The translations under genes and the position numbers were made by a program. A model generated the notes under the pieces. The model searched no databases. It had not been told where the DNA came from and was given only the letters and a program-made list of their open reading frames with translations. From assembly GCA_964406075.1 (NCBI GenBank), contig CAYOQI010000004.1:57718-121717 (forward strand): a stretch of DNA of 64,000 bases. Direction: 5' to 3'. Numbering within the stretch: the first letter of the stretch is position 1; every line of letters starts with the position of its first letter. The stretch is from an uncultured Pseudomonadales bacterium. GTDB taxonomy: Bacteria; Patescibacteriota; Microgenomatia; UBA1400; PJMF01. Below are positions 8,767 through 55,400 of this stretch, piece by piece.

Positions 8767-8778
8767 ATTAACTTGATT

Positions 8779-8807: not shown

Positions 8808-8867
8808 GATACAACACATATAAATAGCCTTGACTTTTTTATAAAGAGCAATGAGAATGATGTCTAT

Positions 8868-12564: not shown

Positions 12565-12576
12565 TTGATTTTAAAT

Positions 12577-28080: not shown

Positions 28081-29789
<1,709 letters not shown>

Positions 29790-32113: not shown

Positions 32114-32128
32114 GGGCAGTCTGTTTTC

Positions 32129-33203: not shown

Positions 33204-33204
33204 A

Positions 33205-34890: not shown

Positions 34891-34902
34891 AGAAATAAAA
34901 AT

Positions 34903-35838
<936 letters not shown>

Positions 35839-36771
35839 TTATTAAGAATTTTCTCAATAAATGTCCAACCTTTGAACGATGTGTCTAAGTTTAAAATTTA
35901 AGAAATCATTAATTATTTCATTCACATTTTAAACTTTCTCAATGCAAATATTTTTAATATCACAAGGATTTTAAAATCAGCCTTTCTGTTATCATCCGTC
36001 ATTTTTTTGAATCACTTTTACGATGATCCTATATCATTCAGTGCTCAATGAGACGATAACAATTCTTATTGATTCCAATTTAGGCTTCAAATAACTACGA
36101 CTGAGTCCAACACTCTTCTTTTTTAATTTTCTCAAACAGAAAAGGAAATGAGTTTAAAATTACTTCATTTATATTTTTATATAAAAACAAAATTCTTTTT
36201 GAAAACAAGTTGATTGATTTTCATATATTCAAAAAATAATGATTGAGTTTGGTTTAGCAACTTCATCATTTGCTTCCACTCTTAGGTGATTTCTTTATCA
36301 CATAACACAAACGCATGCGTTAATAAACTATATTTGCATTGATAAATATTTTTTCTATCTTAGATTATATTTTTAACGATTACTGTTCTTGCGATATTAA
36401 TTGTTGCGTCTTCGGCTGAAATAATCTTGTGCTATTTTCAAAGAGTCTTCATTCCGCATTCATCACATAAACACCCACTGAAAGATTTTAACGATTTTAA
36501 AAAGACTTTGTATCAATTGATCAAGCAACTTGAGCGAAAATAATTTACAGAATCAAATGAGAGAAAATATTACCAGCAGGCTAAATATGTGAATAAAAAT
36601 GTGTTCGTTGTGAACTTTTATTTGTATTTTATTCGGTAATAATTAAACATGATTATTACGAAACACAGTACACCTCTTGACACCATCAGGTAAAAAATGC
36701 CTTAATGAAGTTGGACAAAAAATGTGACAATTGCTCTTAAAATGTCCCACATTTCGTAAGAACGTAAAAAA

Positions 36772-39700
36772 ATGATTCCCAGTGATCTGCCCCCACTAGT
36801 CTCCATTCATGAAGCTGCAAAGTTTCTTAAAGTTTCGACAAAAACTTTACGTCGTTGGGAAGATCGACACATTTTGTTACCAGCTCGAACTTCTGGCGGA
36901 CACCGAAGATATGATCTCAACGAGATCAAGGCCTTCAAAAAACAAAAGTATTCCAGTGGCTCAGTCGTTCATCAAACAGTACTCCCACTTGCAACAGTTA
37001 AACCACTTGAATCAAAAGTGGTTGACCAAACAGATATTCTTCAAGTTTCCAAACCACTCATCATCAAACCCATTGATCATTTTCCGTTAAAAACACCGAA
37101 AGTAACTGCATACAAGCCATTCCCAGAGACAATTACGAAAGTAAAAAAAACATTTGAGTTTCCTTCATTCCAAGTTAGAAACAACATTCCTCCTCAGGTC
37201 GAAATTCCCACAGAGAAAATAACGGATTTCCCTATTCCAACCACTCCACCTTCTTGGGTGTCTGTCTCAATCGTGTTGGCTTTTTTCTTTATTTCAGCTG
37301 CAGCATTCAGTATTCAAGGTTTCTTCAAGCCTCTAGTTGCAAAACATCCAGTCCTAAGTGAAATTGCGTATTCCCTCGAAAAGAGATTGGCAATAAATGT
37401 TTTTCCTAAAAAAGAAGTGATGATTGTTCAGGCTAACGATAGCAAAGTCTTGGGAGAACACTCCAGCTTAGATTTTTTAAAATTTAATATTAATGTCGAG
37501 TCTTCTTTTCGCGAGTTTGCGAACTTCCTCTCAGATGTCAATGTCGAAGGAAATGCCACGGTCAGTGGAATTTTAAGTGTGAACTCCGGCTCACTTCAAA
37601 CAACTTCTGAAACAGCTCAAGTTTTTGAAAACGCTTCTACTCTCTCAATTGCTGCGAACACTGGCACCACAACAGTGAACAACTCACTAAACGTGGGTGG
37701 AAATTTAACAGTAATTGGTTTGATAAATGATATTGCCGGTACTCTCAATCTTTCCGGTAATACTTTGACTTCAACTGGTGATCTAGTTATTGATCCTGGC
37801 GGAGGTGGTGTTTCGATTGGAGATGCCACTCCAGGAATTATAGATATGACAGATGGAGATTTTTTTGTTTCAGGCGATGTAGAAATTGACGGCATTTTAT
37901 ACGCACCAACTGCAAATATATCAGGCACTGCGAGTATCGGCACTGTCTTGGTGAATTCCGACAGTATCAATGACTTTACTGGAACAGGCTTGACTGTCTC
38001 TGATGGAGCTCTTCAAACCACAATTGGCACATCGGTTTCTTCCTCTGAAATTGAGAATGACACAATTTTGGAAGAAGATCTTAAAGTCTCAAATGATGCG
38101 GTAAATGGTTATGCTCTTACCTATGATAATTCGACCGGCGGATTCACTTGGACAGATATTGCATCCAGTCAAGTTTGGATCGATGGTGGCTCAGTCTACT
38201 ATCAAGCCACGACCACCGATGATGTGGTGATTGGAGGTACTTCCAGCTTGGGTAAACTCTCGGTCGATGGGGATAGTGATGAAATCCAACTCGTAGTTCA
38301 AGGCAATGGGACGCAAACATCAAACATCTTCGTAGTTGAAGACTCCAGTGGGACAGATCTTTTTGTGGTGAACAATACTGGAAGCATCACCATTGCGTCT
38401 GGCCAAGATCTCACCATTGGGTCGATTGGATTGAATGATGTCGGAACAGATAATGTCACTTCTGGAGCATCACTTATCGGAGTGTTTGATGAATTCACTA
38501 ACTCCTCAGCTACGACACTACAAGATGTCCTCGATGATTTTGACGCTGCTATTGGTGGTGGAGCTTCAAAGTGGGCTCAAGATACTGGCTTTGTTTACCT
38601 AGCAAGTACGACTGACGACATCGTTGTCGGTGGTGACACAATAGCTAATGGTTCTTTGTATTTTGATGAATCTGCGGGAAGTCTGTATCTCGGAACTAAT
38701 GAGGCTTTGAACGGCTCACTTACTCTCTACTCTTCAGGAGCAGGGATAACTGACCCTACGATTACCGCAGATGCTACAGGAAATGCGAATATCACTACCT
38801 CTGCCACAGCCTTAGTAAATATATTAGCGGGTAATTTGAAAGTGGGTAATGGCGCGCCCACTCAGACCTTAAATGGTGAAGATGCCTATGTCGAAGGCAC
38901 GCTTGAAGTTGATGGGATACTCTACGCTGGTTCTGCCACTACAGCCTTAACCGTAGCAAGCGGACTGATCGATGCTGATGCAATTGCTTTAACTCCAACC
39001 ACTGAGGGATTAAGTGGTATCTCATCAGGCTCAGGTTTAGCGGTATACAGCGACACACTTTCTCTTCTCCAAGGTTGTGGTGATGGTCAAGTTTTGAAGT
39101 GGAACGAAACAAATGATTCATGGGAATGTGCAAATGATACCGGCGCTTCTTTTGCCGTGGTAAACATTGAGAACAATGATGTTGCAGTCGGGAGCAATGT
39201 CGATTCCATTGATTTCTCTACTGATTTCTTAGTCACTGCTTCCCCATCAAACGAAGCCAATGTTGCAATCGCCGATGACATTTTAAACTTCACAGAATTC
39301 TCTGATGCCCTTACCTTAGATGCCGCTACCACCATCACCAATTCTTTAGCCGGCAACTTGACAATCGACCTCACTTCAACCGGTGATTTCGTCATTGCAG
39401 ATGGTGGAGTTGCCTTCTTTACCTTTACTGATGGTGGTGCTTTAACTCAGGCTGGAAGCGGTCAAATAACCTTGACTGGAAACGTTGATGCTACAAATGG
39501 TCTTGATATAACAGGCGCTTCCCTAACGGTTGGTGGTGCAAATGCCACGATCACCACAGGTGGAGCGTTAACATTGGCATCAACAATTACAGCAGCGACC
39601 GACGAGACCATTAACGGCGTTGATATCAATGCCGGTACCGTTTCAGATGTTGTGAATTTAACTATTAATTCAGGTGGTGACTTAACCATTGGTTCAATCG

Positions 39701-42700
39701 GTTTGAATGATGTGGGTTCAGACAACATCACTTCCGGTGCTTCCTTAGTGGGAGTGTTTGATGAATTCACCAATTCAAGTGCAACAACTGTTCAAGACGT
39801 CTTAGATGATCTCGATGCAGCAATTGGTGCTGGTGCAAGTAAATGGACTGACTCTGGTACTGTTACCTACCTTACTGACACGACTGACAGTATTACGATT
39901 GGGAGTTCAACCGAACTTGGTAAACTTGCAGTCGATGGAGATGCTGATGAAGTTCAGTTATTAGTTCAAGGTAATGGAACCCAGACCAATGCCCTTGCAA
40001 TTTTTGAAGATTCAACAGGTGCTGACCAATTTAGCATTAGTAATACTGGAAACGTGACGTTAGCTGGAGATTTAACAATCAGTGGTGGAAATATTACCTC
40101 TGCAACTACCTTTGATTCCACCGCAACCGTAACAGGAACATTAACAGCAAATGGCACTTTAGATGCCAATGGGATCTTCACACTTGGTGACAATGGCGAA
40201 ACCGGTGCAATTGATACTTCTGATTGGGATATTTCTGCCACCGGTGTACTCACTGGAGTGAGTGGTATTACCACTGATGGTGGATACACTCAATCAGGCG
40301 CGACCGGAAATACATTTTCAGGCAATGTCGATGCAACTTCTGGCCTTGATGTCACAGGTGCTTCTCTGACTGTCGGTGGTGCAAATGCCACGATCACTAC
40401 AGGTGGAGCGTTAACTTTAGCCTCCACAATTACAGCCAACACAGATGAAACAGTGAACGGAGTTGATATTAATGCAGGGACTGTTTCTGATGTGGTGAAT
40501 TTAACAATCAATTCTGGTGGTGACTTAACTATCGGGTCAATCGGACTCAACGATATTGGTTCAGACAACATCACTTCCGGTGCTTCTTTAGTTGGAGTCT
40601 TCGATGAGTTTACTAATTCAGATGGTCTTAATGTACAAGATGTCCTTGATGACTTTGATGCTGCTATTGGTGCAGGTTCTAGTAAATGGACAGACTCTGG
40701 TACTGTTACCTACTTAACTTCTACTACTGATGACTTAGCCGTGGGAGGATCCACTGTCCTGGCTTCCATGTTTGGCATTGATGAATCGGCAGGAAATTTC
40801 TACTTTGGCTATGACAACTCAGTTTCCCCTACCTTCAACTTTGAAGCCTCTGATGGTGATGCTGGTGAATTTGGATTTAATACCAATGACACATTCTTCT
40901 TCTCCAATGCACGAGTGGGTGTCGGAACGACCAATCCTTCAAGGTTATTACATGTAAGTGATTCTTCAGGGTCGCCCGCCATTAGAGTTACTGGTTCAGC
41001 CAGTGGTTCACCGTTTATTGAGTTCGAACAGTCAGGAAATGTTAGAGGTGTTTTTGGTTATGATAATACAACTTCGACCTTGCAACTTGCATATGGAGCG
41101 AATTTTAGTACTACCTTCCTATCACTAAATAGTTCTGGTTCTATGGGTCTTGGAACCTCTGCACCTGACGCCGCATTAGAAATCAATCATGCTACGGGTG
41201 ATAGTTTACGACTTACATACAATGACTCAAATGGTTCCGCTACCAGCTACACAGACTTCTCTCTCGCCTCTGATGGAGATTTAACAATTGATAGTGCTGG
41301 TGGTGCCATAAACCTTGGTGCAAATGATGACCTCAATATCACTGCTTCTACTGACTTAATCTTTGGAGGATCAACCTCTCTTGGTGAATCTACAGGAGCG
41401 GCTGATTCAGGAGCTTTCTTAACTGGTATTTTTGATGAATTTGATAACTCTGCTTCCTCTACAGTACAAGATGTGATTGATGATATTGATGCAGCTATTG
41501 GAAATAGAACATACACTGCTGATAACTACGTGACTGATGGTCAAACTCTGACAGCTTCCATCAATGCCCTTGATATTGCACTTGCCTCTGTTTCAGGCGG
41601 TGCGTACACAGGATGGAGTATTGACGTGGATGATGACGGAGCTGATCCAATTGCAAGTGGAGCTACGCTGAATGTTGATGCTGGAAGTAATGTGTCATTG
41701 ACCTACACAGCTGGTACCAATACGCTTTTAATTGCTGCTACTGATACAAATACTACCTACACAGCTGGGAATGATCTTGATCTTACCGGAACGGTCTTCA
41801 GCCTAGAAACCACCCTCGATTTTGTCGACACAATTAATTTAGCTGGGACAGGAACTCTCAACGGTCTTGATGCCGTTGATGCTACTGGAGAAAATACTAT
41901 TGAGGCCCTGATCTTTGATACAGATGCTGAAAGTATTACCGGAGTCTGGACGGTAGCTGACTCGACCAACTTCAGAATTGGTACCGGTGGTGACTTAACC
42001 TTCGCTCATGATGGTTCAAACTCTACTATTACTAGTACGACGGGTGACTTACTTATCGACAATACAAATGCCACCGGTTCAACCATTTTTGACCTGGGCA
42101 CAGATACTTCAGCCACTGATTTCCTTATTAGGAATGATTCTGGCACTCAACTCTTAAGCTTGAACGGTGCCGGGGCACTTCAGCTTGGAAGCAATGGTCA
42201 AGATGGTCAGTTCATCCTCTACAACGAACTAGGTGTAACAGATTACACAAACACAATTAACCCAAGTGGTTCTCAGTCCCAAAACATCACCTATACCCTA
42301 CCTCCTGATGATGGTGGCGCTGATAATTACGTTCTCACCACGGATGGAAATGGCGTATTGCAATGGGAATCCGTCACTGGTGCCGGTGGAGGAAGTGGAG
42401 ATCTGACAGATATCATTGCTGGGAACTACATTGATGTTCAAAACGCTGGTGGTCCGAGTCCTACTGTAGACTTTGATCCAACCGAACTTGAAGGAGTGAC
42501 TTGGGGTGCCTCATCTGGCGCCAGTGAACCTTTTACCTGGACGTATGATGTGACGAACTCCGGAACTGATCCTTCCATCACTTTCGCGGACAATGCCATC
42601 ACTCTCACAGCAGCAACTCTTACAGCTAGTGGTGATTTAACAATTCAAGGTGGAGACGCAACGCTTGGAATGGCTGGAACCGATGGTTCGCTCACTTTTT

Positions 42701-45700
42701 ACAATGAACTCGGAGCCACAGATAGAAGTGTTATCTTTAACGTCTCGGGATCGCAGTCAGAAGATATTGTCTACACTCTTCCTCCTGATAATGGAGCTGC
42801 TGACAACTATGTTCTTACCACTGATGGGTCAGGTGTGTTGCAGTGGGAATCAGTTTCCGGAGCTGGTGGCGGAACAGGTGATGTTACCGATATCGTTGCT
42901 GGCAACTACATTGATGTTCAAAATGCTGGTGGCCCAAGCCCAACCGTGGACTTTGATCCAACTGAACTTGAAAGTGTGACCTGGGGAGCACAAACTGGTG
43001 CTTCATTTACCTGGACGTTTAATGCTTCATCTGGCACTGATACCAGTATCGCCTTTGCGGATGGCAGTATCTCCCCCACACTCGCTGCAACTGGACTATT
43101 CAATGTCTTAACTGGAAATTTGAAGGTCGGAAATGGAACACCTGGACTTTCGCTCGATGGTGAAGATGCATATATTGAAGGCACTTTTGAAGTGGACGGC
43201 GCATCTCAATTTGATGGTGCTTTGACAACTAATGGAACGTTAACCGCAAACGGCCAGTTCACACTCGGAGATAATGGTGATACTGGGGCTATTAATACCT
43301 CAGATTGGGATATTTCTACTACTGGTAGTCTCACAGGAATTTCTGGAATTGCGAATGACGGAAGCTATACCCAAACCGGATCAAGTGCAAATGCATTTAC
43401 AGGTGTAACAACATTTAACACTGATGTTGATTTCACCTTCGCTGATACTGAAAATATTGCCATTACTAATACCGTAACAGGCACAAACGGTCTCGATCTT
43501 ATTTCTGCTATTATCACAAATCAAACTTCCTCTGGAACTCAAAGAGGTATTGTTATTTCTAATGCGAACGATGCTGCCAACGCCTCAACTGAGTCATTAA
43601 TCTTCTTAGACAATGCCGAAACTACCGCTTCTACCCTTACAGACGCAATACTCATTACTTCATCTGGTGCTGATGGTGGCATTGTCGATGCCATTGATGT
43701 TTCAGCTGGCAACATCACCAATGCGCTCAATGTCGGTGGGAATAATATCATCGGAACAACAGCAGTCATAAACTTTGATAACTTTGACATTGATGGTTCA
43801 GGAAACCTCGTAACTGCTGGAACATTAACAGCTGCCACGAATGAAACAATTAATGGGGTTGATATCAATGCTGGAACTGTTTCAGATGTGGTGAATTTAA
43901 CAATCAATTCTGGTGGTGACTTAACTATTGGTTCAATCGGTCTCAATGATGTCGGATCAGACAACATCACCTCTGGGGCTTCCCTAGTTGGCATGTTTGA
44001 TGAGTTTGATAACTCTGCGTCCACCACAGTTCAAGATGTTATTGATGACATTGATGCAGCTATCGGGAATCGAACCTACACTGCTGATAACTATGTGACT
44101 GACGGTCAGAGTTTAACCGCTTCGATTGATGCCCTTGATGTTGCTCTTGCTGCTGTCTCCGGTGGTGCGTACACGGGCTGGGATTTAGATGGTGATTCCG
44201 GAACCGCCGAAACCATTGCTAATGGCAATACGGTCAATATCCTCGGTGGCACCAATGGAATTGATACCGTCGTAAGTGCGACTGATACTTTAACTATTAA
44301 TTTAGATACTACGGAAATTGGTACAAGCACTTTTGGATCTGGATCAGGTTTTACTTGGACTTTTGACGCCGGTGCTACTGATCCCACACTTGCCTTTGCA
44401 AGTAACGCCATTACTATCGGGGGTGCTGCTACACTCAACTTTGGCGGTACTCTTGACCTCGGAACAAACACTCTCAGTGATGGCAACTTTAATGGTAACT
44501 GGGCATTTAATAGTGGAAATCTCTCCGGGATTGGAACCATCGGTGCTTCTGGTGCGATTACTGCTGCAACCGATGAGACCATTAACGGCGTTGATATTAA
44601 TGCAGGGACTGTTTCTGATGTGGTGAATTTAACAATCAATTCTGGTGGTGACTTAACTATCGGGTCAATCGGACTCAACGATATTGGTTCAGACAACATC
44701 ACTTCCGGTGCTTCTTTAGTTGGAGTCTTCGATGAGTTTACTAATTCAGATGGTCTTAATGTACAAGATGTCCTTGATGACTTTGATGCTGCTATTGGTG
44801 CAGGTTCTAGTAAATGGACAGACTCTGGTACTGTTACCTACTTAACTTCTACTACTGATGACTTAGCCGTGGGAGGATCCACTGTCCTGGCTTCCATGTT
44901 TGGCATTGATGAATCGGCAGGAAATTTCTACTTTGGCTATGACAACTCAGTTTCCCCTACCTTCAACTTTGAAGCCTCTGATGGTGATGCCGGAGAGTTT
45001 GGTTTTAATACCAGTGATTCCTTCTTCTTTAGTAACGCCTTAGTTGGTATTGGAACTGCAAGTCCAAGCGAACAGCTAGAAGTTGGAGGAAATATCGAGC
45101 TAACTGCTGCAGTTCCTCGTCTTGCGTTTGACAATACGAACGGTGATAACGATTGGTATATACAAGCTTCAGCCACTGGCTTTCAGTTTAGAAACTCATC
45201 TGATAACGTCAACTACCTTTTGATCAATCAAACAGGTCTTGTAAGCATTGGTGGAGATGATTCCCCTGATTATCTGCTAGAACTTTATGATGCCACAGCC
45301 ACTCCTACATTTGCCTTATCTGATGATGATGTTACACACGGACTCACAACACTTGCTCAGACAGATGTGTTTTCTCATCTAACATCACTCTCAACCACAG
45401 CCGGAGGTGCAGAACTTACCACAATCAGTGACACAGATGCTCAAGCACTATCGATCCGAGGCGTGATTGGTTCTACTGACCCGACCGATACGACTCCAGC
45501 AGTTAAGCTTGTAGGTGCAAAGAGTAATGGAACAACCGGTATGGCAGATCTTGGTGCAGCAGAAACAGTATTCCAAGTTGCAAACAATGATGACGCTTCA
45601 GCATTAACAATACTTGGGAATGGAAATGTTGGGATCGGTGATACAACGCCAGCTGCACTTCTGACCGTTGGAACATCAGATGCATTACAAATTGATGCTT

Positions 45701-48700
45701 CTGGAAATGTTGTGACGACTGGAACAGTAACTGCAGCTACGAATGAAACAATTAATGGAGTTGATATTTCAGCAGGAACGGTTTCCGATGTGGTGAATTT
45801 AACAATTAACTCAGGTGGTGACTTAACTATTGGTTCAATTGGTTTGAATGATGTTGGAAGTGACAACATCACTTCTGGAGCATCGCTCGTTGGTGTGTTT
45901 GATGAGTTCACCAACTCAAGCGCAACAACAGTTCAAGATGTCTTAGATGATCTCGATGCAGCAATTGGTGCTGGGGCAAGTAAATGGACTGATGGTGGAG
46001 CTATTACCTACTTAACAGCAACAACAGATGACCTCGCTGTCGGTGCTTCCAACACTCTCACTGCTCCTTTCTCTGTCGATGTCTCTGCCAACTTAGTCAG
46101 AATCGGTACTGGTTCAACAGCCAATGCTCAACTTGACATGTATGCTTCAGATGGCGACACAGGAAGTCTTATTTACAATACTTCAGATCAATTTAACTTC
46201 ACCGGTGGTGATGTCTTGATTGGTCAGGCATTAACAGTAACTGGAACAACTACCGCCAATGGTGCCTTTGATGCCAATGGTCAGTTCGATCTTGGAGATG
46301 GTGGCGATGCTGGAACAATTTCTGCAACTACGCTAGACATTGATGCCACAGGTGCTCTTCAAATTAACTCCTCAGGTGGAGCTATTGGGATTGGTAATGA
46401 TGCTGTTGCTCAAGCAATTAACATTGGCACTGGTGCTGCAGCTCGAACCATCACTATGGGAAACAATACCGGTGCTTCAGCGCTCCAACTTACCTCAGGA
46501 ACTGGCGACATTACTTTGACATCAACTGACGATATCTTATTCACTCCTACTGACGATATGCTCGCAACCTTTGCCGCAGGCTCAGCATTTACTATAGATG
46601 CTGCAACCACTGATACGACAGTAACCGGCGGAGTTCTTGCCCTTGATGTCGATGCTGGAAATGCGGCTGTGATTGGAATTGATTTAGATTTTTCTCAATC
46701 AAGTGGAGCAACGACAGGGACAGATGCTATTGGTCAAAACATCGCTGTTTCAGCCAATGATGCAGATGGTGATGTATTTGGACTTTCAATCCGATCAAAT
46801 GCCACAGCCAATGCTGGAGTGGGTTCTTATGAGGCATTAATTCGACTAATTAATGCTGAAGATACCGCCTCGGCTGTAACAGACGCTATTTTAATTGACT
46901 CAACTTCAGGCGTAGACGGTGACATCATTGATGCGATCGATGTTTCTGATGCAAATATCACCAACGCTTTGAATGTTGGCGCCAACAATATTATTGGTAC
47001 TTCAGCTGTTATCAATTTCTCAAGCTTTGATGTAGATGCTTCAGGAAATACGATAATTGGTGGAACACTCGACGTCACTGGAATTTCAACTCTAGTTGGC
47101 AACTTGAACGCAAACGGTGGTCTTGATGTCGATAACGCATTCGTTGTAGCGGATGGTGGAGTGTTAACCACCTCTCAAACTGCTAACTTTGATGGCACAG
47201 CTGACTTTGATGGTGCTGCCGACTTCTCCGCTGGAGTTACAAACTCTGCAGGTGAATTCTTAGTTTCAGGTGGAAACCTCCAGCTCAATGACAATATTAA
47301 TTTGACGGTTGGAACTGGTGATGACTTAACTATCGTTCACAATGGAACCAACACACTTCTCACTTCCGTAACGGGTGACTTAATCTTTGATAATACTTTA
47401 GTAACTGGTTCTACTATCTTTGATCTTGGAACCGATACCTCTGCAACTGACTTCTTAATTCGAAACAATTCTGGAACTCAACTTCTCAGCATGAACGGTG
47501 CTGGTGCATTCCAACTTGGATCAAATGGTCAAGATGGCCAGTTCATTCTCTATAACGAACTGGGTGGAACTGACTACACAAATACAATTAACCCAAGTGG
47601 TTCTCAATCTCAAAATATTACCTATACCCTCCCTCCAGACGACGGCGGACTAAACTACGTTCTTACCTCAGATGGTAGTGGTGTACTCACCTGGCAGTCT
47701 GTCGGTGGAATCGGAGCTGGTGGAGATTTAACTGACATTGTTGCCGGAAACTACATTGATGTCCAAAATGCTACCGGGCCAAGTCCTACAATAGATTTCG
47801 ATCCAACCGAACTCGAAACCGTGACCTGGGGTGCCCAAGCTGGATCTTCCTTTGCTTGGACATTTAACGCGTCAAGTGGCACTGATCCTGTCATGACATT
47901 TGCCGATAATGCCATCACTCTTACAGCTGCTACCACTACTCTCTCTGGAGATCTTGCGATCAATGGTGGAAATGTCACAACCGCGACCACCTTTGACTCA
48001 ACACTGACAGCAACAGGGACACTTACAGCAAATGGAGCCCTTGATGCTAATGGTCAGTTCGATCTTGGAGATGGTGGCGATGCTGGAACAATTTCTGCAA
48101 CTACGCTAGACATTGATGCCACAGGTGCTCTTCAAATTAACTCCTCAGGTGGAGCTATTGGGATTGGTAATGATGCTGTTGCTCAAGCAATTAACATTGG
48201 CACTGGTGCTGCAGCCAGAACAATCACAGTGGGAAACAATACCGGTGCCTCCGCACTCCAACTCACCTCAGGAACCGGAGACATCAACTTGAATTCTGCC
48301 GATGATATTTTCCTGAGTCCAAGTGATGACCTTACGGCCTTCATCACCGCCGTTGGTCAATTTACTATTGATGCGGCAACAATTGATAGTCAGAATACCC
48401 TCGGCGCATTTAGACTTGATATTGATAGCTCTACATCAGGGACTATTGGATTCTTGACCAACTTTAGAGCTATTGATGATGACGCAGCCGACATTCTCTA
48501 CGCCAATCGTACTGATGTCACAATTCAAGATGATACCACTGCTTCTGACACCGTCTATGGAAATTATATTAGTCTCATTCAGAATGACACCACACCAGCA
48601 ACAACATATGGCTTAGCGGTAGTAGCAGAAGATGCTGGTACTTCCCCTGTCTCTACTGGAATCTTAATTGAAAACTTACAAGCAACTGATATTGATCTCA

Positions 48701-51700
48701 CCGATGGTCTGTTGATCAGAGCAACAACAGATGGTTCATTAGTAGATGCTATTGATGCGTCAGATGCAGAAATTACCAATGCCTTAAATATTGGGGCAAA
48801 CACAATCTTAGGAACAACTGGGGTTATCGATTTCACTAACTTTGATGTTGCAGCTACAGGTGCGCTCTCACTCTCTACCGCCGGAAATACCTCAGCCTCC
48901 TTCACCAGAACATCTGCTGGTCAATGGATGGCATTCAACGATGGCACCGATACTTGGGGTATTTACAACACCGCTGGTAGTCCTGAAGCATCGTTGACCG
49001 CAAATACTGGAGCCCTCGCAATGGATACAACCAATGGAACTCTCTATGTCAAAACTGATGATGGCGATAACACAGGGTGGGTAAACCTCGCTTCCGGTGC
49101 TTCTTCACCTTGGACTGATTCAGGGACGACTTCCTACTTAACCGATACTACAGATGAAGTAGTGATTGGTGGAGCTTCCCCACTTTCCAGTGCCAAATTT
49201 TCAATCGATGGAGATGCGGATCAAACTCAACTACTTGTCCAAGGCAATGCAACTCAAACCACAGACCTCGCAATCTTTGAGAACTCAGCGGGAGCAGATC
49301 AATTCAACTTCAGTAATACTGGAAACTTGATTGCAGCTGGAGACATTACTGCCACTGGTGGAACATTCAACGGTGCATCTGGAGAAAGTATTGACCTCGG
49401 AGTCGCAAGCTCAGATGTCCTCACCTTCACGACTGGAGCCTCAACTGAACTACTCCTTTCCACAACTAACTTAACAGCTGGAACAGCTGAAGGAAACTCA
49501 CTTGGATCTGCAACAGTAGAATGGGAACAACTCTTCCTTGGTGATAACAATGGAATTTCCTTTGGTCTCGATCAAGATTGGTCATTTGGTTATGATGAAG
49601 CTACAGATGATCGACTTGAATTAATCACAGCAGGAACGTCTGGAATGTTAATCCAATCCGCAACGGCTACTGGCAACGGATTAGCACTTACTTTTGATTC
49701 ACTCTCAACCGGTGAAGGACTCTACTTGTCTTCTACTTCAACAGCATTAACATCAGGTGGACATCTTGGTCTCTTCGAGTGGAATCCTGGAAGTGCCAGT
49801 TCGACCACCGCAGATCTGTTTAGTATCAATATTGGAAGTAACGCCACTGTGCTGGGAGATATCTTTAATGTTCAAGATAACGGCTCTGATCTTTTCTCCG
49901 TTGGAGAAGCTCAAATTACCTCTGCTCTTCCCCACTCATTTACCGCAGCCGGCGATGTATCAGTGGCCTACGATCTCCAATTTACCAATCAAACTGCTAG
50001 TTATTTGAAAACATACGGCCCACTTCAGATCGAAGCTGGTGAATCGTTTGAATCAAATAACTTAACGATAAAAACATATAACTCAGGTGACGTCGTCATT
50101 GATCTACCAGCCACCGGCCAAATGATCGTACAAGGTGCGTTCTCAATTGGAGATCAGCAAACACTTCCTGCCGGAACCACACCTTCCGTAGCCGGTGGTT
50201 CACACTACATTGGAAACGCGAATGGATTGATCACCAACTTCACCAGTGGAACTGCAGGTCAGATCCTAGTACTTGAGTTCGATGGAACTTCGACTGACCT
50301 CGACTGTAGCACTGCCGGACCGATTCGTTGTGGAAGTACAGATATCACTACCCAACAAGCAGCCGGTGACATCATTACCTTCATTTATGACGGAACAAAC
50401 TGGAACATGATCGAGTATGTAGCACTGGACGCAGACTCTACAGCTGGAGCTGACCTTGCCGAGTACTACCCCGCTTCTGAACACTTAGAGCCAGGTGACA
50501 TCGTCAGTATTGATTCAACTCAGCCAGTGATGGTGGAAAAATCTCACGAGTCTCATCGTCAACGAATAATGGGTATCGTATCAAGTGATCCAGGATTATT
50601 ACTTGGTGAAGAAGCGGATAATTCTTACCCCATCGCCTTGGCAGGGCGTGTGCATGTAAAAATGTCAGAATCATCTGAAGCTATTCAACCCGGCGACTTA
50701 GTTGGAGTTTCTCAGGAAACCGGAAAAGCCAAAAAAGTAAACTCTGGATATACAGTTGGCCGTGCTCTTGAATCATGGGATCCAAACTCTGGCGATCGAG
50801 ATGTGGTGGTATTTGTGAACTTATCATATATTCCCGTAGATTTAGCTTTAAATAATGATGGTCAAGTCAGCTCAAGCTACTCACTTATTACGACGGATTC
50901 TCTTGAGTACGCGATTCGCGATCTGAACAATGGACAGGATATTCAACAAACCTTAGTCTTGGCCGAATCATTGATTGGACGACTGGAAACCGGAAGTATA
51001 GTTACTCGAGAATTACAAGCTCAAAGTATCGAAACTGAAGACTTCCTCACGAATAACGCCACAGTATCTGGACAACTCAATGCCAACTCTGCAGAAATTA
51101 ACTCATTGAGATTTGAAACCGCCACAGTGGCGGGTCAACTTTTCTTATCAGATGGACGAAGTGTCGGCTCATTACTGGATGAAAATGATGCCTACTTAGC
51201 TTCCCTCTCAGCTCAGACCCAACAACTCGCACAATCATTTAGTGAGCAAACTGTCCCAGGCACATCCACAGCCTTTGATGAATTCCTCGCTCAACTGACA
51301 GGTACAGAAGACGCTTCTCTCTCAGCTGCCTTAGCAGCAATTCAGAATCAAGAAGATATTGAACTCGATGCAGAAAGCATGGTCCTGGCACCAGACGCAG
51401 TCTTTGTCAAAGAATACTTGAATGTCACCGGCTTCACTCAATTAACTACGGCCAGCATTTCTCAATCACTTACTGTGGGAGATGGTTTACTCTTAACTCA
51501 AGATACGATCGCCACAGCAGAGGAAACACTCTATATCCAACCAACTGCCGGATCACTGAACTTACTCGCCGGTTTGATGACACTCACTCCAGATGGAAAC
51601 GTCACGATTAACGGTGATCTGACTGTTACTGGAATCGCTTCCATTACTGATGGAGTGAAAACTAGTCAGCTCTCTCCAAATGACTTTACGCAAGATTTGA

Positions 51701-52447: not shown

Positions 52448-55400
52448 ATGTTCTCATTTCGTCGTCGCCCACTATCTTCCGTATCTAGAAAACGCTCACC
52501 GAAGGTAGTTGTTCTCTTATTGTTGTTAACACTGCTTTTACTCCCAATCGTCTACAGCCTCATTACACGTCCCAATCAAGGAACAGCTGCACCACTCAAC
52601 GCGACTGAAGATTCTACTTCCATCACAATTACATCCCCAGGAAAATATCGAGCAGTGATCCAAAAAGGCGATACCACAGATTACATTCTTTTTTATGATC
52701 TAGCTGAAGATGCCGGTAACCCTGATCCGACACATGAGTTTAAGGGCCCGTGTGTTTTGGAAACAAACACGTATTGCCTGCGAGATGATAGTAACCGAAT
52801 GACAACACTGATTGAGGTGACAGACACCGTTGTGAAAGTTCGGGTCATGGGCAGATTCAATAACGAAGCCAGTACTGATTATCTTGATGATGATACGCCA
52901 CTCTATTTCCCTGAAGTGATCGAAAACTATGCGTTCACTCGTGATGGAGTAAGTGTCATGAACCGTACGGACTTCGCTACGGGAACTGGTGTCACTTTTG
53001 ATGCAGATTCTGGGCACAACGGATATGACTGGCTCGGTGTGTACTCAGATGTCACCGATGGTGCATACGATGACACCGCCAATAATAACTATGGTGATGG
53101 TGCGACTGAGGCTCAAATATCCGCCGATGGAGAGTTTTCTAATACCAATAGTTACTTTCACATGCCTGGAACTGGGAGCTCTACCTACCAAGACGCCTTT
53201 GTCGGTATACATCGAGATGGTTGGTATAGCGATTTAAACTCCAGTGGTGTCCATGAGTGGAATTGGGATGAGGCTGAATCAGGTACGCAGGATTTAATCA
53301 CAGCACAAGAGCAAAACTACAACTCCAGCAGACGTCATGAGGCCAAATGGTATTTCCTCCTGAAAAGTGAATCAGATCTTGATACTGAAGCCGAACGAGA
53401 AGCTTTGAACAATGAAATGATCAATGCCGATATACTCTCCTACACCGTAGGTGAAACGTCCTACGAGATGCCGGTGACTGCAACTGCAATCAATTTTGAT
53501 GCGGATACTGATTACGTCAACGTGCCTGACAACTCAGCCTATGATTTTGGTGATACAGCAGACTACTCTGTTGAAGCGTGGATGATGAGAAATGGAAACC
53601 CTATTTCAGGTGATAACCCCATTGTCTCAAAACGGCTCTGTTGTGGTGCTTCCGGCTGGGAATTCCAGATTCGACTTTCAAGCGCACGAATGCGTTTGCA
53701 AATGACTGATGGAACAGATACGTATGATCTTGAAGGCAGTACGGTTCTTAGTGACCAAACTTGGTACCACGTTGCAGCCGTGTTTGATCAAGACAACGCC
53801 AGCAATAGCATTATCTATATAAACGGTGTTGCAGAAACGATGACTCGGACAGGGACTATTGGAAATTTGGGCAGTATGGCAAGTACCGCTGGACTCGGTT
53901 TTGGTGTTGGTGAGCCTGGTATTGGGAACTATAACAGTTTTTCCGGCCGAATAGCTGAAGTACGAATCTGGGATGATGTGCGAACAGCAGCTGAAATTCG
54001 CGAAAACATGTTTCGACAAATTGACCCCGCATCAGCAAACCTAGTGGGATACTGGAAACTGGATGAAGGGACCGGAACTGCAGTACATGATTCCAGTGCA
54101 ACCGGTGCGAATGGAACAATTGTTGGAGGTGCCACTTGGGACTCAGTCAATGAACGTAAGGCCGATCACTTCAATGAATTTGAATTTGCCCACACACTTC
54201 AGTCAACAGCCCAAAATGCGCAGTACGATATTGATGCTGGAGCATCAAATGTCTCAACAACAGCCAATGGTGCTATTTCCGATAACGCGACCACAGTCAC
54301 AGTTACCTCCACGACAGGCTTTGCCTCTTCGGGAATTGCCTACATTGATGGAGATAAGTTTAGCTACACTGGAACCACTGCCACGACATTTACCGGTGTT
54401 CCCTCTTCTGGTGAACACAGCGTAATTGCTCATGTCACAGGAAGTGTGGTCGCTCAGTTCACGCGAAGTAACACCAACTTTAAGGTTGGTGGCTACCAAT
54501 CCACTGAGAAACCTGCGCAAATTACCAAAGAAGGTATCTCGCAAAAAGAAGGGGTCGATTTCTCAGCTTCTGTAAAGCCAGTAACGGATGGCTACTTTGC
54601 CCAAGACTTAAGTTTTTATGCAGACTTTGCAAGTACGACAGTTGACGTTGGTTCAAACTTGACCAATAGCGGATGTACCCTGACACAAGGTGGCAATGAC
54701 TACACTTTAGGATTTATCACCGTATGTGATGGTGGCTCCGATGACATGACATTTACCTCAACAGGCAATATCGACTATGCCAAAGGAGCCCTTGAGTTTT
54801 CGATCGCGGCATTCAGTACCAGTGCTGACAGTACCGAACGTACATACTTTCGCATAACCGATGGCACCGATGAGTTTCGATTTCGCAAAACATCAGGCAA
54901 TACTTTAGAGTTTTTAATTGATGAAGGCGCTTCCACCTATACAGAATCTATCTCAAGTGCAAACTACAGTTGGGGGTTTTTGGACACTGTTCACATTCGA
55001 CTGGAATGGGATGACAGTGCCTCTACCACAGAAGATGAAATGAAAATTTACATCAATGGAAGATTACCGACCTCCACAGATGCGAGTGGTTTTACCGGTG
55101 CAAATGTGTCTCCTGGTACCACCTTCCGTTTAGGAAATAGTGCAGACTCTGGAGGTACGCACTGTAACTGCTTGATCGATGAATTCAAAATCTATGACTT
55201 CAACGGCAGTGGTGATCAAGTTGGACTGGCCAAGGTTGGAGCCGGTGGTGGAGGTGGTGATTATTTCTATAACCCAAATAATAATCTGACGCTTTCTTTT
55301 GCTCCGGTGGACGCTGGTAATCGAGGTGAGTATCTCTACTTAGGCGCTGATGCCAAAGTCAATGGATATAACTTTGATCTTGCTACCAATGGTGTTGGAA

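What the first reader, a model, noticed from the sequence alone, without database searches (positions are those of the whole stretch)
36772..37330. MerR/excisionase-type HTH fused, through a single TM helix, to a 5-kaa repeat surface protein
The first ~55 codons of the 15.4-kb ORF encode a clean MerR/Xis-type helix-turn-helix (IHEAAKFLKVSTKTLRRWEDRHILLPARTSGGHRRYDLNEI). About 110 residues later comes one TM helix, and everything after that looks extracytoplasmic and adhesin-like. This topology puts a cytoplasmic DNA-binding domain on a membrane-spanning giant surface protein. It recalls ToxR/CadC-style membrane-tethered one-component regulators, but with an enormous ectodomain. It could couple surface contact or shedding of the ectodomain to transcription, or the HTH could recruit the protein to DNA during uptake (comEA/comEC and pseudopilins are nearby). 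I do not recognise this architecture as a described family.
Basis: partly seen in the sequence, partly recalled or inferred. Interest (0 to 1): 0.8.

Follow-up and report, generated by a model that had tools for sequence, protein, structure and literature searches.

The report
Membrane-tethered DNA-binding giant surface fibre
A 5,133-residue surface fibre protein of a tiny uncultured (CPR/Microgenomates) bacterium carries a small DNA-binding domain on its cytoplasmic end, the fusion is conserved in dozens of species, and its own promoter carries conserved sites that this domain probably binds.

Summary
ORF 36772-52173 is uninterrupted. It encodes a MerR-type winged helix-turn-helix (HTH; residues 9-61, closest solved relative BldC), a disordered basic linker, the protein's only hydrophobic helix (residues 161-185), and a 4,950-residue acidic ectodomain.

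The fusion is not an assembly artefact. The same HTH-linker-TM-long ORF layout occurs in about 75 of 80 related loci from different Microgenomates-type species, usually divergent from the ATP synthase cluster. Database relatives reach 7,954 aa.

The ectodomain ends in a phage tail-fibre-like module with a phi29 gp12-type autochaperone, which suggests a trimeric fibre.

New here: a conserved promoter is followed by AAAnTT(G/A)GACA sites in 56 of 67 upstream regions (about 1.9 expected). They occur as convergent pairs or as 10-bp tandem repeats. Site flanks and arrangement co-vary with the HTH wing residue (H or Q).

My best reading is a membrane-tethered, BldC-like DNA binder that acts on its own promoter. 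DNA binding, topology and trimerisation are inferred, not shown. The proposed link to DNA uptake has no synteny support. I found no paper describing this family. I rate it a new variant of the known transmembrane-regulator class.

The parts
36677..36682 (+). -35 hexamer TTGACA of the gene's promoter
   Evidence: Read from the sequence. CTTGACA is enriched in 37 of 67 family upstream regions against about 1.9 expected. The consensus scan did not list it, because the -10 element departs from TATAAT.
36701..36708 (+). -10-like element CTTAATGA, 18 nt after the -35 hexamer
   Evidence: Read from the sequence. The same TTGACA-N17-19-(C/G)TTAAT(G) layout appears in the related loci printed. Inferred, not mapped.
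36708..36719 (+). Operator-like site 1, AAGTTGGACAAA (perfect core TTGGACA at 36711-36717), starting right after the -10 element
   Evidence: This is the only match to AANTTRGACAWW in the 64-kb window. The core is present in 56 of 67 family upstream regions against about 1.9 expected. 105 of 325 exact hits in about 1 Mb fall in the 300 nt upstream of the gene.
36743..36749 (-). Operator-like site 2, TGTCCCA (inverted orientation, one mismatch to TGTCCAA). A weaker same-orientation site TGTGACA lies at 36723-36729, 20 nt before it
   Evidence: (window entry) and direct reading. A convergent pair spaced 18-21 nt is the dominant layout in the family (45 cases).
36772..52173 (+). Gene for the 5133-aa HTH-TM-fibre protein
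   Evidence: The identical 5133-aa protein is in the public collection as P0067.
36796..36954 (+). Cytoplasmic BldC-like MerR-type winged HTH (residues 9-61)
   Evidence: Pfam MerR, MerR_1 and HTH_17 above cut-off. The best PDB sequence hit is BldC (6amk, E 2.6e-6). pLDDT is 92-95. Foldseek top hits are BldC chains with TM 0.74-0.79, rmsd 1.4-1.6 A and 40-43% identity. The BldC DNA-contact residues are conserved.
36955..37251 (+). Disordered basic linker (residues 62-160)
   Evidence: pLDDT below 50. Across the family the length varies from 11 to 144 residues (median about 64), always in frame.
37252..37326 (+). Single transmembrane helix (residues 161-185), probably an uncleaved signal-anchor
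   Evidence: It is the only hydrophobic segment in the protein. It is modelled as a helix at residues 162-184. One such segment follows the HTH in 74 related ORFs.
37327..49638 (+). Extracellular fibre region: a conserved membrane-proximal part (to about residue 555), then a variable array of repeated modules
   Evidence: Residues 1-555 align with complete homologues at 34-41% identity, while the middle is poorly conserved. Repeat families appear in DNA and protein. There is no Pfam or PDB sequence match.
49639..51081 (+). Conserved C-terminal module (residues 4290-4770), tail-fibre/tailspike-like
   Evidence: 36-49% identity to complete homologues. Homologues carry Phage_depo_C, K1-lyase_C, Peptidase_G2 and Collagen domains. 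PHROG tail fiber protein, E 4.2e-4.
50452..50871 (+). phi29 gp12-type autochaperone-like domain (residues 4561-4700), starting at D-L-A-E-Y-Y
   Evidence: The family profile hits 3gqh (E 1.8e-6), aligned from residue 1 of that chain (DFAEYF), and the Dpo31 tailspike chaperone. pLDDT is about 80-94. The Foldseek top hit is 3gqh_A, E 4.5e-5.
51082..52170 (+). C-terminal tail. It has a short modelled helix just before it (protein residues about 4708-4718) and a conserved terminal segment ending ..FNFWIV
   Evidence: The A2 alignment consensus ends ..FNWWIV. The helix is from the model.
34903..35682 (-). Conserved divergent neighbour (259 aa): signal peptide, an ectodomain homologous to the giant protein's autochaperone-like domain, and a C-terminal two-helix hairpin weakly like ATP synthase subunit c
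   Evidence: Present in 68 of 80 loci, and divergent in all 60 loci scored. BLASTP to the giant's residues about 4593-4690 gives E 2e-7. ATP-synt_C E 0.009, below cut-off.
35862..35868 (-). Additional TGTCCAA core near the divergent neighbour's upstream region
   Evidence: window list. Its function is unknown.
52448..59968 (+). Downstream 2506-aa secreted protein with eight Laminin_G_3 domains. Co-oriented and possibly functionally linked
   Evidence: Pfam Laminin_G_3, E 6.4e-159. It has an N-terminal signal-anchor. A homologue lies in 7 of 80 loci; it is directly downstream in the separately fetched locus L201, and position was not checked in the seven.

Best explanation
This is the local member of a conserved Microgenomates (CPR/Patescibacteria) family of single-pass, N-in/C-out giant fibre proteins. 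The chain has five parts. First comes a cytoplasmic BldC-like winged HTH without the MerR coiled coil. Next is a disordered basic linker of about 100 residues, then one TM helix. Outside the cell lies a long acidic repeat fibre whose length varies between species. It ends in a tail-fibre-like module with a phi29 gp12-type autochaperone, which by analogy nucleates a homotrimer once the C-terminus has been exported. A trimer would place three HTHs together under the membrane. I propose that these HTHs bind the AAAnTT(G/A)GACA sites that start right after the gene's own -10 element. This would repress the giant gene's transcription, or tether the locus, in proportion to the protein already inserted in the membrane. 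Shown: the domain architecture, its conservation and synteny, the structural similarity to BldC and gp12, and the conserved sites with their co-variation with the HTH wing residue. Inferred: topology, trimerisation, DNA binding by this HTH, the direction of regulation, and any coupling to host contact.
For: Architecture. Conservation: about 75 of 80 loci from different species carry an HTH ORF with one hydrophobic segment at residues 75-225 that continues as a long ORF. Complete examples are 720-3556 aa, and many run off the locus at more than 3300 aa. An exhaustive profile search gives 93 cluster representatives at E<=1e-30, including proteins of 4670, 5023, 5623, 6172 and 7954 aa matched over the whole N-terminal profile. 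Synteny: ATP synthase alpha, gamma and beta lie upstream in 57-59 of 80 loci and the divergent 259-aa neighbour in 68 of 80. The same order holds on a 1.0-Mb contig. DNA-binding competence: BldC is the best sequence and fold match. BldC residues that contact DNA (K26, T27, R30, W31, H46, R47, R48) or sit in the DNA-bound dimer interface (G44) correspond to K24, T25, R28, W29, H44, R45, R46 and G42 here. Most of these are invariant in the family. Relatives carry 2 to 8 tandem HTHs before the TM helix. Topology. Operator: TTGGACA/TGTCCAA occurs in 56 of 67 upstream regions against about 1.9 expected, a roughly 15-fold local enrichment. 45 convergent pairs are spaced 18-21 nt and 18 same-orientation (++) pairs are spaced 10 bp. 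The window has a single extended-motif hit, at the promoter. The sites remain with the HTH gene in 5 of 6 loci that lack the neighbour. The sites are unlikely to form an RNA hairpin: the -1 position between the arms is mismatched in 27 of 38 pairs, and the window's leader RNA folds no better than shuffles (z -0.49). Co-variation with the HTH wing residue (H or Q): 10-bp tandems occur in 15 of 31 Q loci and 0 of 37 H loci (p 6.8e-7). Position -1 differs between the two groups (chi-square p 6.6e-11) and so does position +9 (p 3.9e-7). Trimeric fibre analogy.
Against: No experiment shows binding, topology or trimerisation. The H and Q wing types track clades (roughly Woesebacteria versus Levy-, Ames- and Shapirobacteria), so the co-variation statistics are inflated by shared ancestry. 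Another regulator, or a soluble paralogue, could read the sites; a 65-aa stand-alone HTH gene lies near the orthologue in L201. In this window the second half-site is imperfect and the spacing is atypical (32 nt from site 1). Only 64 kb of this genome was searched, so a wider regulon cannot be excluded. The NCBIfam BldC model scores 34.8 bits against a cut-off of 77. Pfam Peptidase_G2 does not match the window protein itself. The C-terminal model is only moderately confident overall (mean pLDDT 58). The local charge flanks of this protein's TM helix (-1 before, +2 after) do not by themselves favour N-in.
Confidence: 0.55

Rival explanations
1. Architectural tether rather than regulator. The membrane-anchored HTHs bind DNA mainly to hold the nucleoid, or the gene's own locus, at the base of the fibre. 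This would resemble RacA anchoring the chromosome to the pole. It could help co-transcriptional, co-translational export of a 15-kb message, or couple the envelope structure to the chromosome in a very small cell.
For: The RacA DNA-binding domain is among the best fold matches, and NCBIfam RacA gives E 0.0024. Sites sit at the gene's own 5' end. Tandem arrays of 2-8 HTHs in relatives and multi-site clusters suit avid tethering. The linker is long and disordered.
Against: The sites begin immediately after the -10 element, which is a classic repressor position. Only one to a few sites are seen per locus in the DNA held, whereas RacA uses many sites. Tethering and repression are not mutually exclusive.
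Confidence: 0.2
2. Contact- or shedding-coupled signalling by regulated proteolysis, in the manner of Notch or anti-sigma factors. Strain on, or loss of, the ectodomain triggers cleavage in or near the TM helix. This releases the HTH and linker to regulate this and other promoters.
For: The architecture is a DNA-binding domain, linker, single TM helix and huge ectodomain. A predicted autoprocessing motif lies in the ectodomain at D4561. Such a sensor would suit a symbiotic lifestyle, which is my own background knowledge about CPR bacteria.
Against: No protease gene, cleavage motif or released fragment is in evidence. By analogy with gp12, the autochaperone cleavage is an assembly step far from the membrane. 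In cells this small a tethered HTH can plausibly reach DNA without release, as described for transmembrane regulators (PMC10269533).
Confidence: 0.13
3. The HTH is a protein-interaction or targeting module and does not bind DNA. This would resemble the cytoplasmic HTH of RodZ, which binds MreB. The promoter sites would then belong to a different regulator.
For: RodZ shows that an HTH-TM-ectodomain layout need not mean DNA binding (my own background knowledge). No binding data exist for this family.
Against: Residues that contact bases and phosphates in BldC are conserved and nearly invariant. The N-terminal part is strongly basic. Site flanks co-vary with the wing residue.
Confidence: 0.07
4. 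The N-terminal 185 residues are an unusually long cleavable signal peptide. Signal peptidase would free the fibre and leave an HTH-TM stub, so that one stub, and perhaps one released HTH, is produced per exported fibre.
For: Small residues (SAAAFS) lie near the outer end of the TM helix in this protein. A one-to-one by-product would make a simple feedback counter.
Against: The hydrophobic segments are 19-27 residues long, which suits membrane anchors rather than signal-peptide cores. In many family members a K or R follows directly. No conserved A-x-A motif appears across the family. After cleavage the fibre would have no other recognisable anchor. The LPATG at residue 4445 lacks the hydrophobic tail of a sortase signal.
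Confidence: 0.04
5. Artefact: an assembly or sequencing error fused a small MerR gene to a separate surface-protein gene.
For: Giant repeat-rich genes are prone to misassembly, and internal repeats reach 96% identity.
Against: The same fusion, with linkers of variable length that are always in frame, occurs in about 75 independent assemblies of different species and in dozens of database clusters. The promoter and conserved sites sit upstream of the HTH, not upstream of the TM region.
Confidence: 0.01

Closest known systems
BldC (Streptomyces; PDB 6AMK/6AMA; Schumacher et al. 2018, PMC5859096)
   Same: Both are minimal MerR-like winged HTHs without a coiled coil or effector domain. Identity is 40-43% over about 50 residues, rmsd 1.4-1.6 A. 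The DNA-contact residues are conserved. BldC binds direct repeats head-to-tail as multimers, and here the sites occur as 10-bp tandem repeats as well as inverted pairs.
   Different: BldC is a 68-residue soluble protein. Here the domain is the cytoplasmic tip of a 5133-residue membrane protein. The NCBIfam BldC score is below its cut-off. The candidate site AAAnTTRGACA is not the BldC consensus AATTnnnnC. Binding has not been tested.
Transmembrane transcription regulators (ToxR, TcpP, CadC; census in PMC10269533)
   Same: Both have a cytoplasmic N-terminal DNA-binding domain, a linker, a single TM helix and an extracytoplasmic C-terminal part. The census definition (DNA-binding domain plus at least one TM region) is met. 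MerR, MerR_1 and HTH_17 types make up 0.77%, 0.70% and 0.30% of the 50,302 regulators counted.
   Different: ToxR-like proteins use an OmpR-type domain and a small periplasmic sensor of 100-300 residues. Here the outside part is a structural fibre of about 4,950 residues with tail-fibre features. I found no mention of Patescibacteria in the paper or in the supplement text held (files truncated).
phi29 gp12 pre-neck appendage and other tailspikes with a C-terminal autochaperone (PDB 3GQH; Pfam Peptidase_G2)
   Same: The domain at residues 4561-4700 matches the gp12 C-terminal fragment by profile (E 1.8e-6, aligned from the first residue, D-F/L-A-E-Y) and by fold (E 4.5e-5). Homologues carry Peptidase_G2, Phage_depo_C, K1-lyase_C and collagen repeats.
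   Different: It is a chromosomal, syntenic cellular gene. It is anchored in the cell membrane by an N-terminal TM helix rather than to a virion. About 430 further residues follow the domain. Cleavage and trimerisation are untested. Pfam Peptidase_G2 does not match the window protein itself.
RacA (Bacillus subtilis chromosome-anchoring protein; PDB 5I44)
   Same: It has a MerR-like winged HTH used to attach DNA to a membrane-associated site, and it is a good fold match.
   Different: RacA is soluble and reaches the membrane through a coiled coil that binds DivIVA. It has no TM helix and no ectodomain.
RodZ
   Same: It has the same topology: a cytoplasmic HTH, one TM helix and an extracytoplasmic domain (my own background knowledge).
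   Different: RodZ has an Xre-type HTH that binds MreB, not DNA, and a small periplasmic domain. No sequence relationship was found here.
IS607-type serine recombinases
   Same: Their N-terminal MerR-like HTH is among the nearest sequence relatives of this HTH.
   Different: They carry a resolvase catalytic domain (PF00239) and no TM helix. No resolvase domain is present here.

Membership tests
MerR-type HTH domain (Pfam PF00376/PF13411/PF12728) | Match to the domain model above the curated gathering score | tested here: met
   MerR 40.9 bits vs 28.2, MerR_1 38.8 vs 21.6, HTH_17 35.1 vs 27.
MerR-type HTH domain (Pfam PF00376/PF13411/PF12728) | Winged helix-turn-helix fold | tested here: met
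   AF2 gives pLDDT 92-95 for residues 9-61. All top Foldseek hits are MerR-like winged HTHs.
Canonical MerR-family transcription regulators | Long coiled-coil dimerisation helix and C-terminal effector-binding domain after the HTH | tested here: not met
   Only positions 2-47 of the 69-position MerR_1 model match. Residues 63-160 are predicted to be disordered.
BldC family (NCBIfam NF033787) | Score above the curated NCBIfam cut-off | tested here: not met
   34.8 bits against a cut-off of 77.
BldC family (NCBIfam NF033787) | BldC-like fold and conservation of DNA-contact residues (K26, T27, R30, W31, H46, R47, R48) and the dimer-interface residue G44 | tested here: met
   TM 0.74-0.79, rmsd 1.4-1.6 A. 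The alignment, read against the residue roles in PMC5859096, gives K24, T25, R28, W29, G42, H44, R45 and R46.
BldC family (NCBIfam NF033787) | Small stand-alone soluble protein | tested here: not met
   The domain is fused to a 5133-aa membrane protein.
BldC family (NCBIfam NF033787) | Cooperative head-to-tail binding to direct repeats | not testable with these tools
   Only suggestive: 18 same-orientation site pairs at 10-bp spacing in family promoters.
Transmembrane transcription regulators (as defined in PMC10269533) | A predicted DNA-binding domain plus at least one predicted TM region in one protein | tested here: met
   The definition was read.
Transmembrane transcription regulators (as defined in PMC10269533) | Regulates transcription while membrane-localised | not testable with these tools
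   Indirect evidence only: conserved sites right after the -10 element of its own promoter and co-variation with the wing residue.
ToxR/CadC-like receptors | OmpR-type (Trans_reg_C) DNA-binding domain and a compact periplasmic sensor domain | tested here: not met
   No Trans_reg_C hit. The HTH is MerR-type and the ectodomain is a repeat fibre of about 4,950 residues.
Tailspike/fibre proteins with gp12-type autochaperone (Pfam Peptidase_G2 PF11962) | Match to PF11962 above the gathering score | tested here: not met
   The window's C-terminal 844 aa give no PF11962 hit at E<=1. Homologues P0042 (39.9 bits) and P0045 (33.7 bits) exceed the cut-off of 25.
Tailspike/fibre proteins with gp12-type autochaperone (Pfam Peptidase_G2 PF11962) | Sequence-profile and fold similarity to the solved gp12 autochaperone, including the D-x-A-E-Y start | tested here: met
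   The profile hits 3gqh at E 1.8e-6, aligned from chain residue 1. Foldseek gives 3gqh_A at E 4.5e-5, TM 0.55 normalised to the target.
Tailspike/fibre proteins with gp12-type autochaperone (Pfam Peptidase_G2 PF11962) | Homotrimer formation and autocleavage before the Asp | not testable with these tools
   No multimer prediction or experiment was available.
RacA-type chromosome anchor | C-terminal coiled coil that binds DivIVA, and many chromosomal binding sites | tested here: not met
   No coiled coil follows the HTH. RacA similarity is confined to the HTH.
IS607-type serine recombinase | Resolvase catalytic domain (PF00239) after the MerR-like HTH | tested here: not met
   Absent from the window protein. 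Present in the hits P0007-P0012, P0014 and P0016.

The most novel reading that the evidence does not exclude
The giant fibre is a host-contact organelle wired directly to the chromosome. In these ultra-small, probably symbiotic bacteria, a trimeric tail-fibre-like protein tens to hundreds of nanometres long would report engagement or loss of its tip. It would do so through its own cytoplasmic BldC-like HTHs, either by mechanical or proteolytic release or by clustering on the repeat sites. Surface attachment would then set transcription without any kinase, second messenger or separate regulator. Bacteria would thus have a Notch-like one-protein pathway, built from a phage-fibre scaffold.
Probability: 0.15. 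Interest if true: 0.9.

Novelty: new variant of a known kind. Interest (0 to 1): 0.68.

Why it matters
CPR/Patescibacteria are abundant and mostly uncultured, and how they sense and hold on to other cells is largely unknown. This family is a syntenic, near-universal gene of one large CPR class. In one polypeptide it joins a surface fibre with phage tail-fibre features to a DNA-binding domain whose candidate target sites can be read directly from genomes.

That makes several hypotheses testable with recombinant fragments and synthetic DNA, without culturing the organism:
- whether a structural surface protein regulates itself from the membrane;
- whether BldC-type head-to-tail DNA binding is used by membrane-tethered proteins;
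- whether fibre assembly or engagement feeds back on transcription.

There is also a practical point. Current annotation calls proteins of 4,000-8,000 residues 'MerR family transcriptional regulator', which hides what they are.

Tried and rejected
- Reverse test of motif-to-gene association. I scanned metagenome contigs for TTGGACAN{11,14}TGTCCAANTTT. The hits have GC from 0.23 to 0.64 and look like chance matches in a very large collection. The test is uninformative, not negative.
- RNA hairpin reading of the inverted pair. I rejected it as the main explanation. The -1 position inside the would-be stem is mismatched in 27 of 38 pairs, and three pairs have A.C clashes at core position 3. Sites also occur as same-orientation tandems and upstream of the -35 element. 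The window's leader RNA folds no better than shuffles. No Rfam family matches the region.
- DNA-uptake link. ComEC and pseudopilin genes are not syntenic with the family.
- Origin-proximal location. In four long records the gene lies within 40 kb of a record end, but on a 1.0-Mb contig it lies at 718-745 kb. I dropped the idea.
- Sortase anchoring through LPATG at residue 4445. No hydrophobic or charged tail follows, so it is probably a chance match.
- Direct sequence searches of the ectodomain against the PDB and Pfam gave nothing. Only a family profile revealed the gp12-like domain.
- The word-indexed homologue search returned only short or truncated proteins. The exhaustive search was needed to see the giant members.
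- Recognition-helix variants. P0159 (KTLYRW) keeps the motif. P0078 (RTLQRY) has diverged TGTACAA/TGTATAA-like sites. P0066 (K changed to D or S) has a different 28-bp palindrome. These are suggestive single cases, not a test.
- Six literature searches found no description of this fusion. The library is incomplete.


Full report
**What is in the window**

ORF 36772..52173 on the + strand is one open frame of 5133 codons. ATG 36772 is the first start codon after an in-frame stop. Residues 11-59 match Pfam MerR (40.9 bits, cut-off 28.2), MerR_1 and HTH_17, all above the curated thresholds. The NCBIfam matches are all partial and below their cut-offs. The best is the BldC subfamily (E 1.1e-8, 34.8 bits against 77), followed by HspR, CarH, excisionase, IS607 transposase and RacA.

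An AlphaFold2 model built on a nine-sequence alignment gives three zones:
- residues 9-61: beta-alpha-alpha-beta-beta-alpha at pLDDT 92-95;
- residues 63-160: below 50, meaning disordered;
- residues 162-184: a helix at pLDDT about 75.

A hydropathy scan of the whole protein finds one hydrophobic segment only, at residues 159-187. The remaining 4,950 residues are rich in G, S, T, N, D and A. D+E make up 12.5% and K+R 1.6%, and there are three close cysteine pairs. No Pfam family matches above threshold.

**The fusion is not an artefact, and this is a family**

A search with residues 1-260 found short or truncated Patescibacteria proteins with the same order of parts: HTH, variable linker, hydrophobic helix, then a motif of the form VLG...F.VNV. 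Using the most conserved peptide of that alignment (VSTKTLRRW), a scan of one genome per species returned 141 relatives. I kept 80 loci. Nearly all carry names such as Woesebacteria, Levybacteria, Amesbacteria or Shapirobacteria. Many others are generic MAG records titled 'uncultured Gammaproteobacteria' whose gene content is the same.

In about 75 of these 80 loci the HTH ORF has one hydrophobic segment 75-225 residues from the start and then continues as a long ORF. Complete examples have 720, 741, 1083, 1876, 2056, 2228, 3014, 3152, 3365, 3420 and 3556 residues. Many others run off the fetched DNA at more than 3300 residues. The linker varies from 11 to 144 residues but is always in frame.

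An exhaustive profile search of 1.84 billion cluster representatives found 93 at E<=1e-30. These include proteins of 4670, 5023, 5587, 5623, 5762, 6172, 6179 and 7954 residues whose N-termini match the whole profile. The window protein itself is among them as P0067. The only names the sources give are 'MerR family DNA-binding transcriptional regulator', 'excisionase family DNA binding protein' or 'hypothetical protein'.

**Synteny**

The gene sits at a fixed chromosomal position. ATP synthase alpha, gamma and beta lie upstream on the other strand in 57-59 of 80 loci. The immediately adjacent 259-residue gene is present in 68 of 80 and is divergent in all 60 loci I scored. The same order appears on a 1.0-Mb contig. 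This is a vertically inherited core gene of the lineage, not a mobile insertion.

**What kind of HTH it is**

The best solved relatives by sequence are the two BldC entries 6AMK and 6AMA (E 2.6e-6 and 1.8e-5). They are also the best by fold: TM 0.74-0.79 normalised to the target, rmsd 1.4-1.6 A, 40-43% identity over about 50 residues. RacA, CarH, SoxR, GlnR/TnrA and a mycobacteriophage Xis follow.

BldC is a 68-residue MerR-like protein without a coiled coil. It binds direct repeats as head-to-tail multimers (PMC5859096). I read the alignment against the residue roles given in that paper. The base-contacting K26 and R30 correspond to K24 and R28 here. The phosphate and kink contacts T27 and W31 correspond to T25 and W29. 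The wing residues H46, R47 and R48 correspond to H44, R45 and R46. The interface glycine G44 corresponds to G42. Most of these positions are invariant in the family alignment, and KTLRRW is nearly invariant across more than 100 cluster representatives.

Relatives carry two HTHs, and one carries eight in tandem before its TM helix. Multiplying the domain makes sense for a DNA-binding module. I conclude that the domain is very likely able to bind DNA. This is an inference.

**Topology**

Across 74 family members the 15 residues before the helix carry more K+R (mean 3.0) than the 15 after (2.1). The whole N-terminal part has a mean net charge of +9. In this window protein the local flanks are uninformative (-1 before, +2 after). 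However, the N-terminal 160 residues carry +10, the ectodomain is strongly acidic and has paired cysteines, and there is no N-terminal signal peptide. N-in/C-out is the only plausible arrangement, but it has not been tested with a dedicated predictor or by experiment.

**The ectodomain**

Complete homologues align well with residues 1-555 (34-41% identity) and residues 4290-4770 (36-49%). They align poorly in between, where the window protein has families of repeated modules. The family therefore has fixed ends and an expandable middle.

Homologues of the C-terminal module carry several telling domains: Phage_depo_C, K1-lyase_C, Peptidase_G2 (the autoproteolytic intramolecular chaperone of phi29 gp12) and collagen repeats. 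A profile of the module hits the gp12 C-terminal fragment 3GQH at E 1.8e-6. The alignment begins at the first residue of that chain (DFAEYF), which corresponds to D4561-LAEYY here. The profile also hits the chaperone domain of tailspike Dpo31. The AlphaFold2 model is confident only for this domain (pLDDT about 80-94), and its best fold match is again 3GQH (E 4.5e-5). PHROGs gives 'tail fiber protein' (E 4.2e-4).

By analogy the outside part is a trimeric fibre whose C-terminal chaperone nucleates folding and may then be cut off. Trimerisation and cleavage are inferred, and Pfam Peptidase_G2 does not match the window protein itself.

**A conserved promoter with conserved sites**

I compared the 300 nt upstream of 67 family genes. 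The 7-mer TTGGACA, or its complement, is present in 56 of them against about 1.9 expected from shuffles. CTTGACA is present in 37. Of 325 exact occurrences in about 1 Mb of fetched DNA, 105 lie in those 300-nt stretches, which are 2.1% of the sequence.

The extended site is AAAnTT(G/A)GACAwTT. The commonest layout is:
- a -35 TTGACA;
- 17-19 nt of spacer;
- a TAAT-type -10 element;
- a site within a few bases of it;
- an inverted site 18-21 nt further on (45 cases).

That leaves about 20-45 nt before the start codon. Eighteen adjacent pairs have the same orientation at 10-bp spacing, and further sites lie upstream of the -35 element.

In the window the -35 hexamer is at 36677-36682 and the -10-like element at 36701-36708. 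A perfect site lies at 36708-36719, a one-mismatch inverted site at 36743-36749, and a weaker same-orientation site at 36723-36729. The extended pattern occurs nowhere else in the 64 kb. The sites stay with the HTH gene in five of six loci that lack the divergent neighbour.

**DNA sites rather than an RNA stem**

If the inverted pair formed an RNA stem, the variable base between the A-tract and the core would have to pair. It is mismatched in 27 of 38 non-redundant pairs, which is what independence predicts. Same-orientation tandems and sites upstream of the -35 element cannot be explained by a hairpin. The window's leader folds no better than shuffles (z -0.49), and Rfam finds nothing there.

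**Do the sites belong to this HTH?**

The evidence is associative.

- First, the near-invariant recognition helix and the near-invariant core occur together across the same set of species.
- Second, an 11-bp half-site used in both orientations and at one-turn spacing suits a monomeric BldC- or Xis-type domain.
- Third, there is co-variation. The residue equivalent to BldC His46, which in BldC enters an AT-rich minor groove, is H in 37 loci and Q in 31.
  - Ten-bp tandems occur in 15 of 31 Q loci and in none of 37 H loci (Fisher p 6.8e-7).
  - The base just 5' of the core is mostly A in H loci (A35 C21 G10 T12) and C or G in Q loci (A4 C41 G30 T1; chi-square p 6.6e-11).
  - Positions +8 and +9 are T-rich only in H loci (p 1.7e-4 and 3.9e-7).
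- The two wing types follow clades, so these p-values overstate the evidence.
- Three single cases point the same way. P0159, with a changed phosphate-contact residue, keeps the motif. P0078 (RTLQRY) has diverged sites. P0066, an eight-HTH relative with the base-contacting Lys replaced, has a different 28-bp palindrome after its promoter.
- A soluble 65-residue paralogue lies next to the orthologous locus in one genome. A separate small protein could therefore share or own the sites. In this window the giant protein is the only ORF with this HTH.

**Mechanism I commit to**

The protein is inserted with its N-terminus inside the cell. The fibre is exported and trimerises from its C-terminal chaperone. 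The three tethered HTHs, on linkers of about 100 residues, bind the sites that overlap the start of transcription of their own gene. Synthesis of this very costly protein is thereby limited by the amount already in the membrane, and the locus is held at the membrane while it is transcribed.

My estimates for the separate steps are:
- architecture and conservation: about 0.95;
- cytoplasmic, DNA-binding HTH: about 0.8;
- binding to these sites: about 0.55;
- coupling to host contact or proteolytic release: about 0.15.

**Comparison with known systems and novelty**

By the census definition this is a transmembrane transcription regulator. MerR-type examples were counted in that census: 386 MerR, 350 MerR_1 and 151 HTH_17 among 50,302 (PMC10269533). 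It is not a ToxR/CadC-type protein. It is not a canonical MerR regulator, because it lacks the coiled coil and effector domain. It is not BldC, which is a small soluble protein.

What has no described counterpart that I could find is the combination of four features: a BldC-like domain on the cytoplasmic end of a giant fibre with tail-fibre features, conservation as a syntenic core gene of a CPR class, a readable candidate operator, and lengths up to 7,954 residues. The preprint on giant bacterial genes covers different proteins and does not mention HTH or DNA-binding domains. Six full-text searches found nothing, though the library is incomplete.

I rate it a new variant of a known kind and interesting (0.68). 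It is well supported as an architecture and open as to function.

Noticed in passing
window 34903-35682 (-): The conserved divergent neighbour has three parts: a signal peptide, an ectodomain homologous to the giant protein's gp12-like domain (BLASTP E 2e-7), and a C-terminal two-helix hairpin. The hairpin resembles ATP synthase subunit c, with the loop [10 protein letters not shown] (Pfam E 0.009, below cut-off). Helix 2 reads [11 protein letters not shown], with no obvious carboxylate. The gene sits at the head of the atp cluster in 68 of 80 loci.
   Followed up: partly
window 28344-35829 (-): The atp cluster has clear alpha, gamma and beta genes. The 158-aa and 202-aa ORFs (32129-33203) have no Pfam match, and no recognisable subunit a was seen. 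A phosphoglycerate mutase gene (33205-34890) lies inside the cluster here and has a homologue upstream in 23 of the 80 loci.
   Followed up: no
window 52448-59968 (+): A second giant gene follows directly: 2506 aa with an N-terminal signal-anchor and eight Laminin_G_3 domains. A homologue lies in 7 of 80 loci; in the separately fetched locus L201 it directly follows the HTH gene.
   Followed up: partly
L201 25761-25958 (+): A stand-alone 65-aa HTH_17/MerR_1 protein is encoded just after the orthologous giant gene and its LamG neighbour on a 1.0-Mb contig. It could be a soluble paralogue that shares the same DNA sites. No equivalent exists in the window.
   Followed up: partly
P0066 / L204 2001-3872, with the palindrome within about 1960-1997: A 623-aa relative has eight tandem MerR-type HTHs and then a TM helix. 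Its promoter region carries a perfect 28-bp palindrome, CCTATGCATTGCTTAAGCAATGCATAGG, instead of TTGGACA sites.
   Followed up: partly
window 38400-48300: The giant gene contains dispersed direct repeats. The copies at 40429-40728 and 44557-44856 are 96% identical over 300 nt. The repeat number could be collapsed by assembly or could vary by recombination.
   Followed up: no
window residue 4445 (about nt 50104-50118) and 8041-8817 (-): An LPATG motif lies in the ectodomain, and a sortase gene lies elsewhere in the window. The motif lacks the usual hydrophobic tail, so it is probably a chance match.
   Followed up: partly
window 38001-60000: The two giant genes have a higher GC content (0.43-0.46) than the rest of the window (about 0.39). 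This may reflect their Gly/Ala/Asp/Thr-rich composition rather than foreign origin.
   Followed up: no
L001, L003, L006-L008 and about 30 further loci: Many genome records that carry this family are titled 'uncultured Gammaproteobacteria'. Their synteny and proteins match the Microgenomates-type loci, so the titles look like placeholder or wrong taxonomy.
   Followed up: no
window 9304-14076: This stretch holds a TrwB/TraG-like coupling ATPase (9304-11454), a VWA-domain protein (11455-12564), and three small ORFs (12577-14076). One of the small ORFs has a prepilin N-methylation motif.
   Followed up: no
P0047 and P0078 (L202): Some family members or C-terminal-module homologues carry a Pfam Intein_splicing hit.
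   Followed up: no
window 35830-36771: The intergenic region between the divergent genes is unusually long at 940 bp and is AT-rich. The family median gap is about 625 bp. No Rfam match was found. A further TGTCCAA core lies at 35862.
   Followed up: partly
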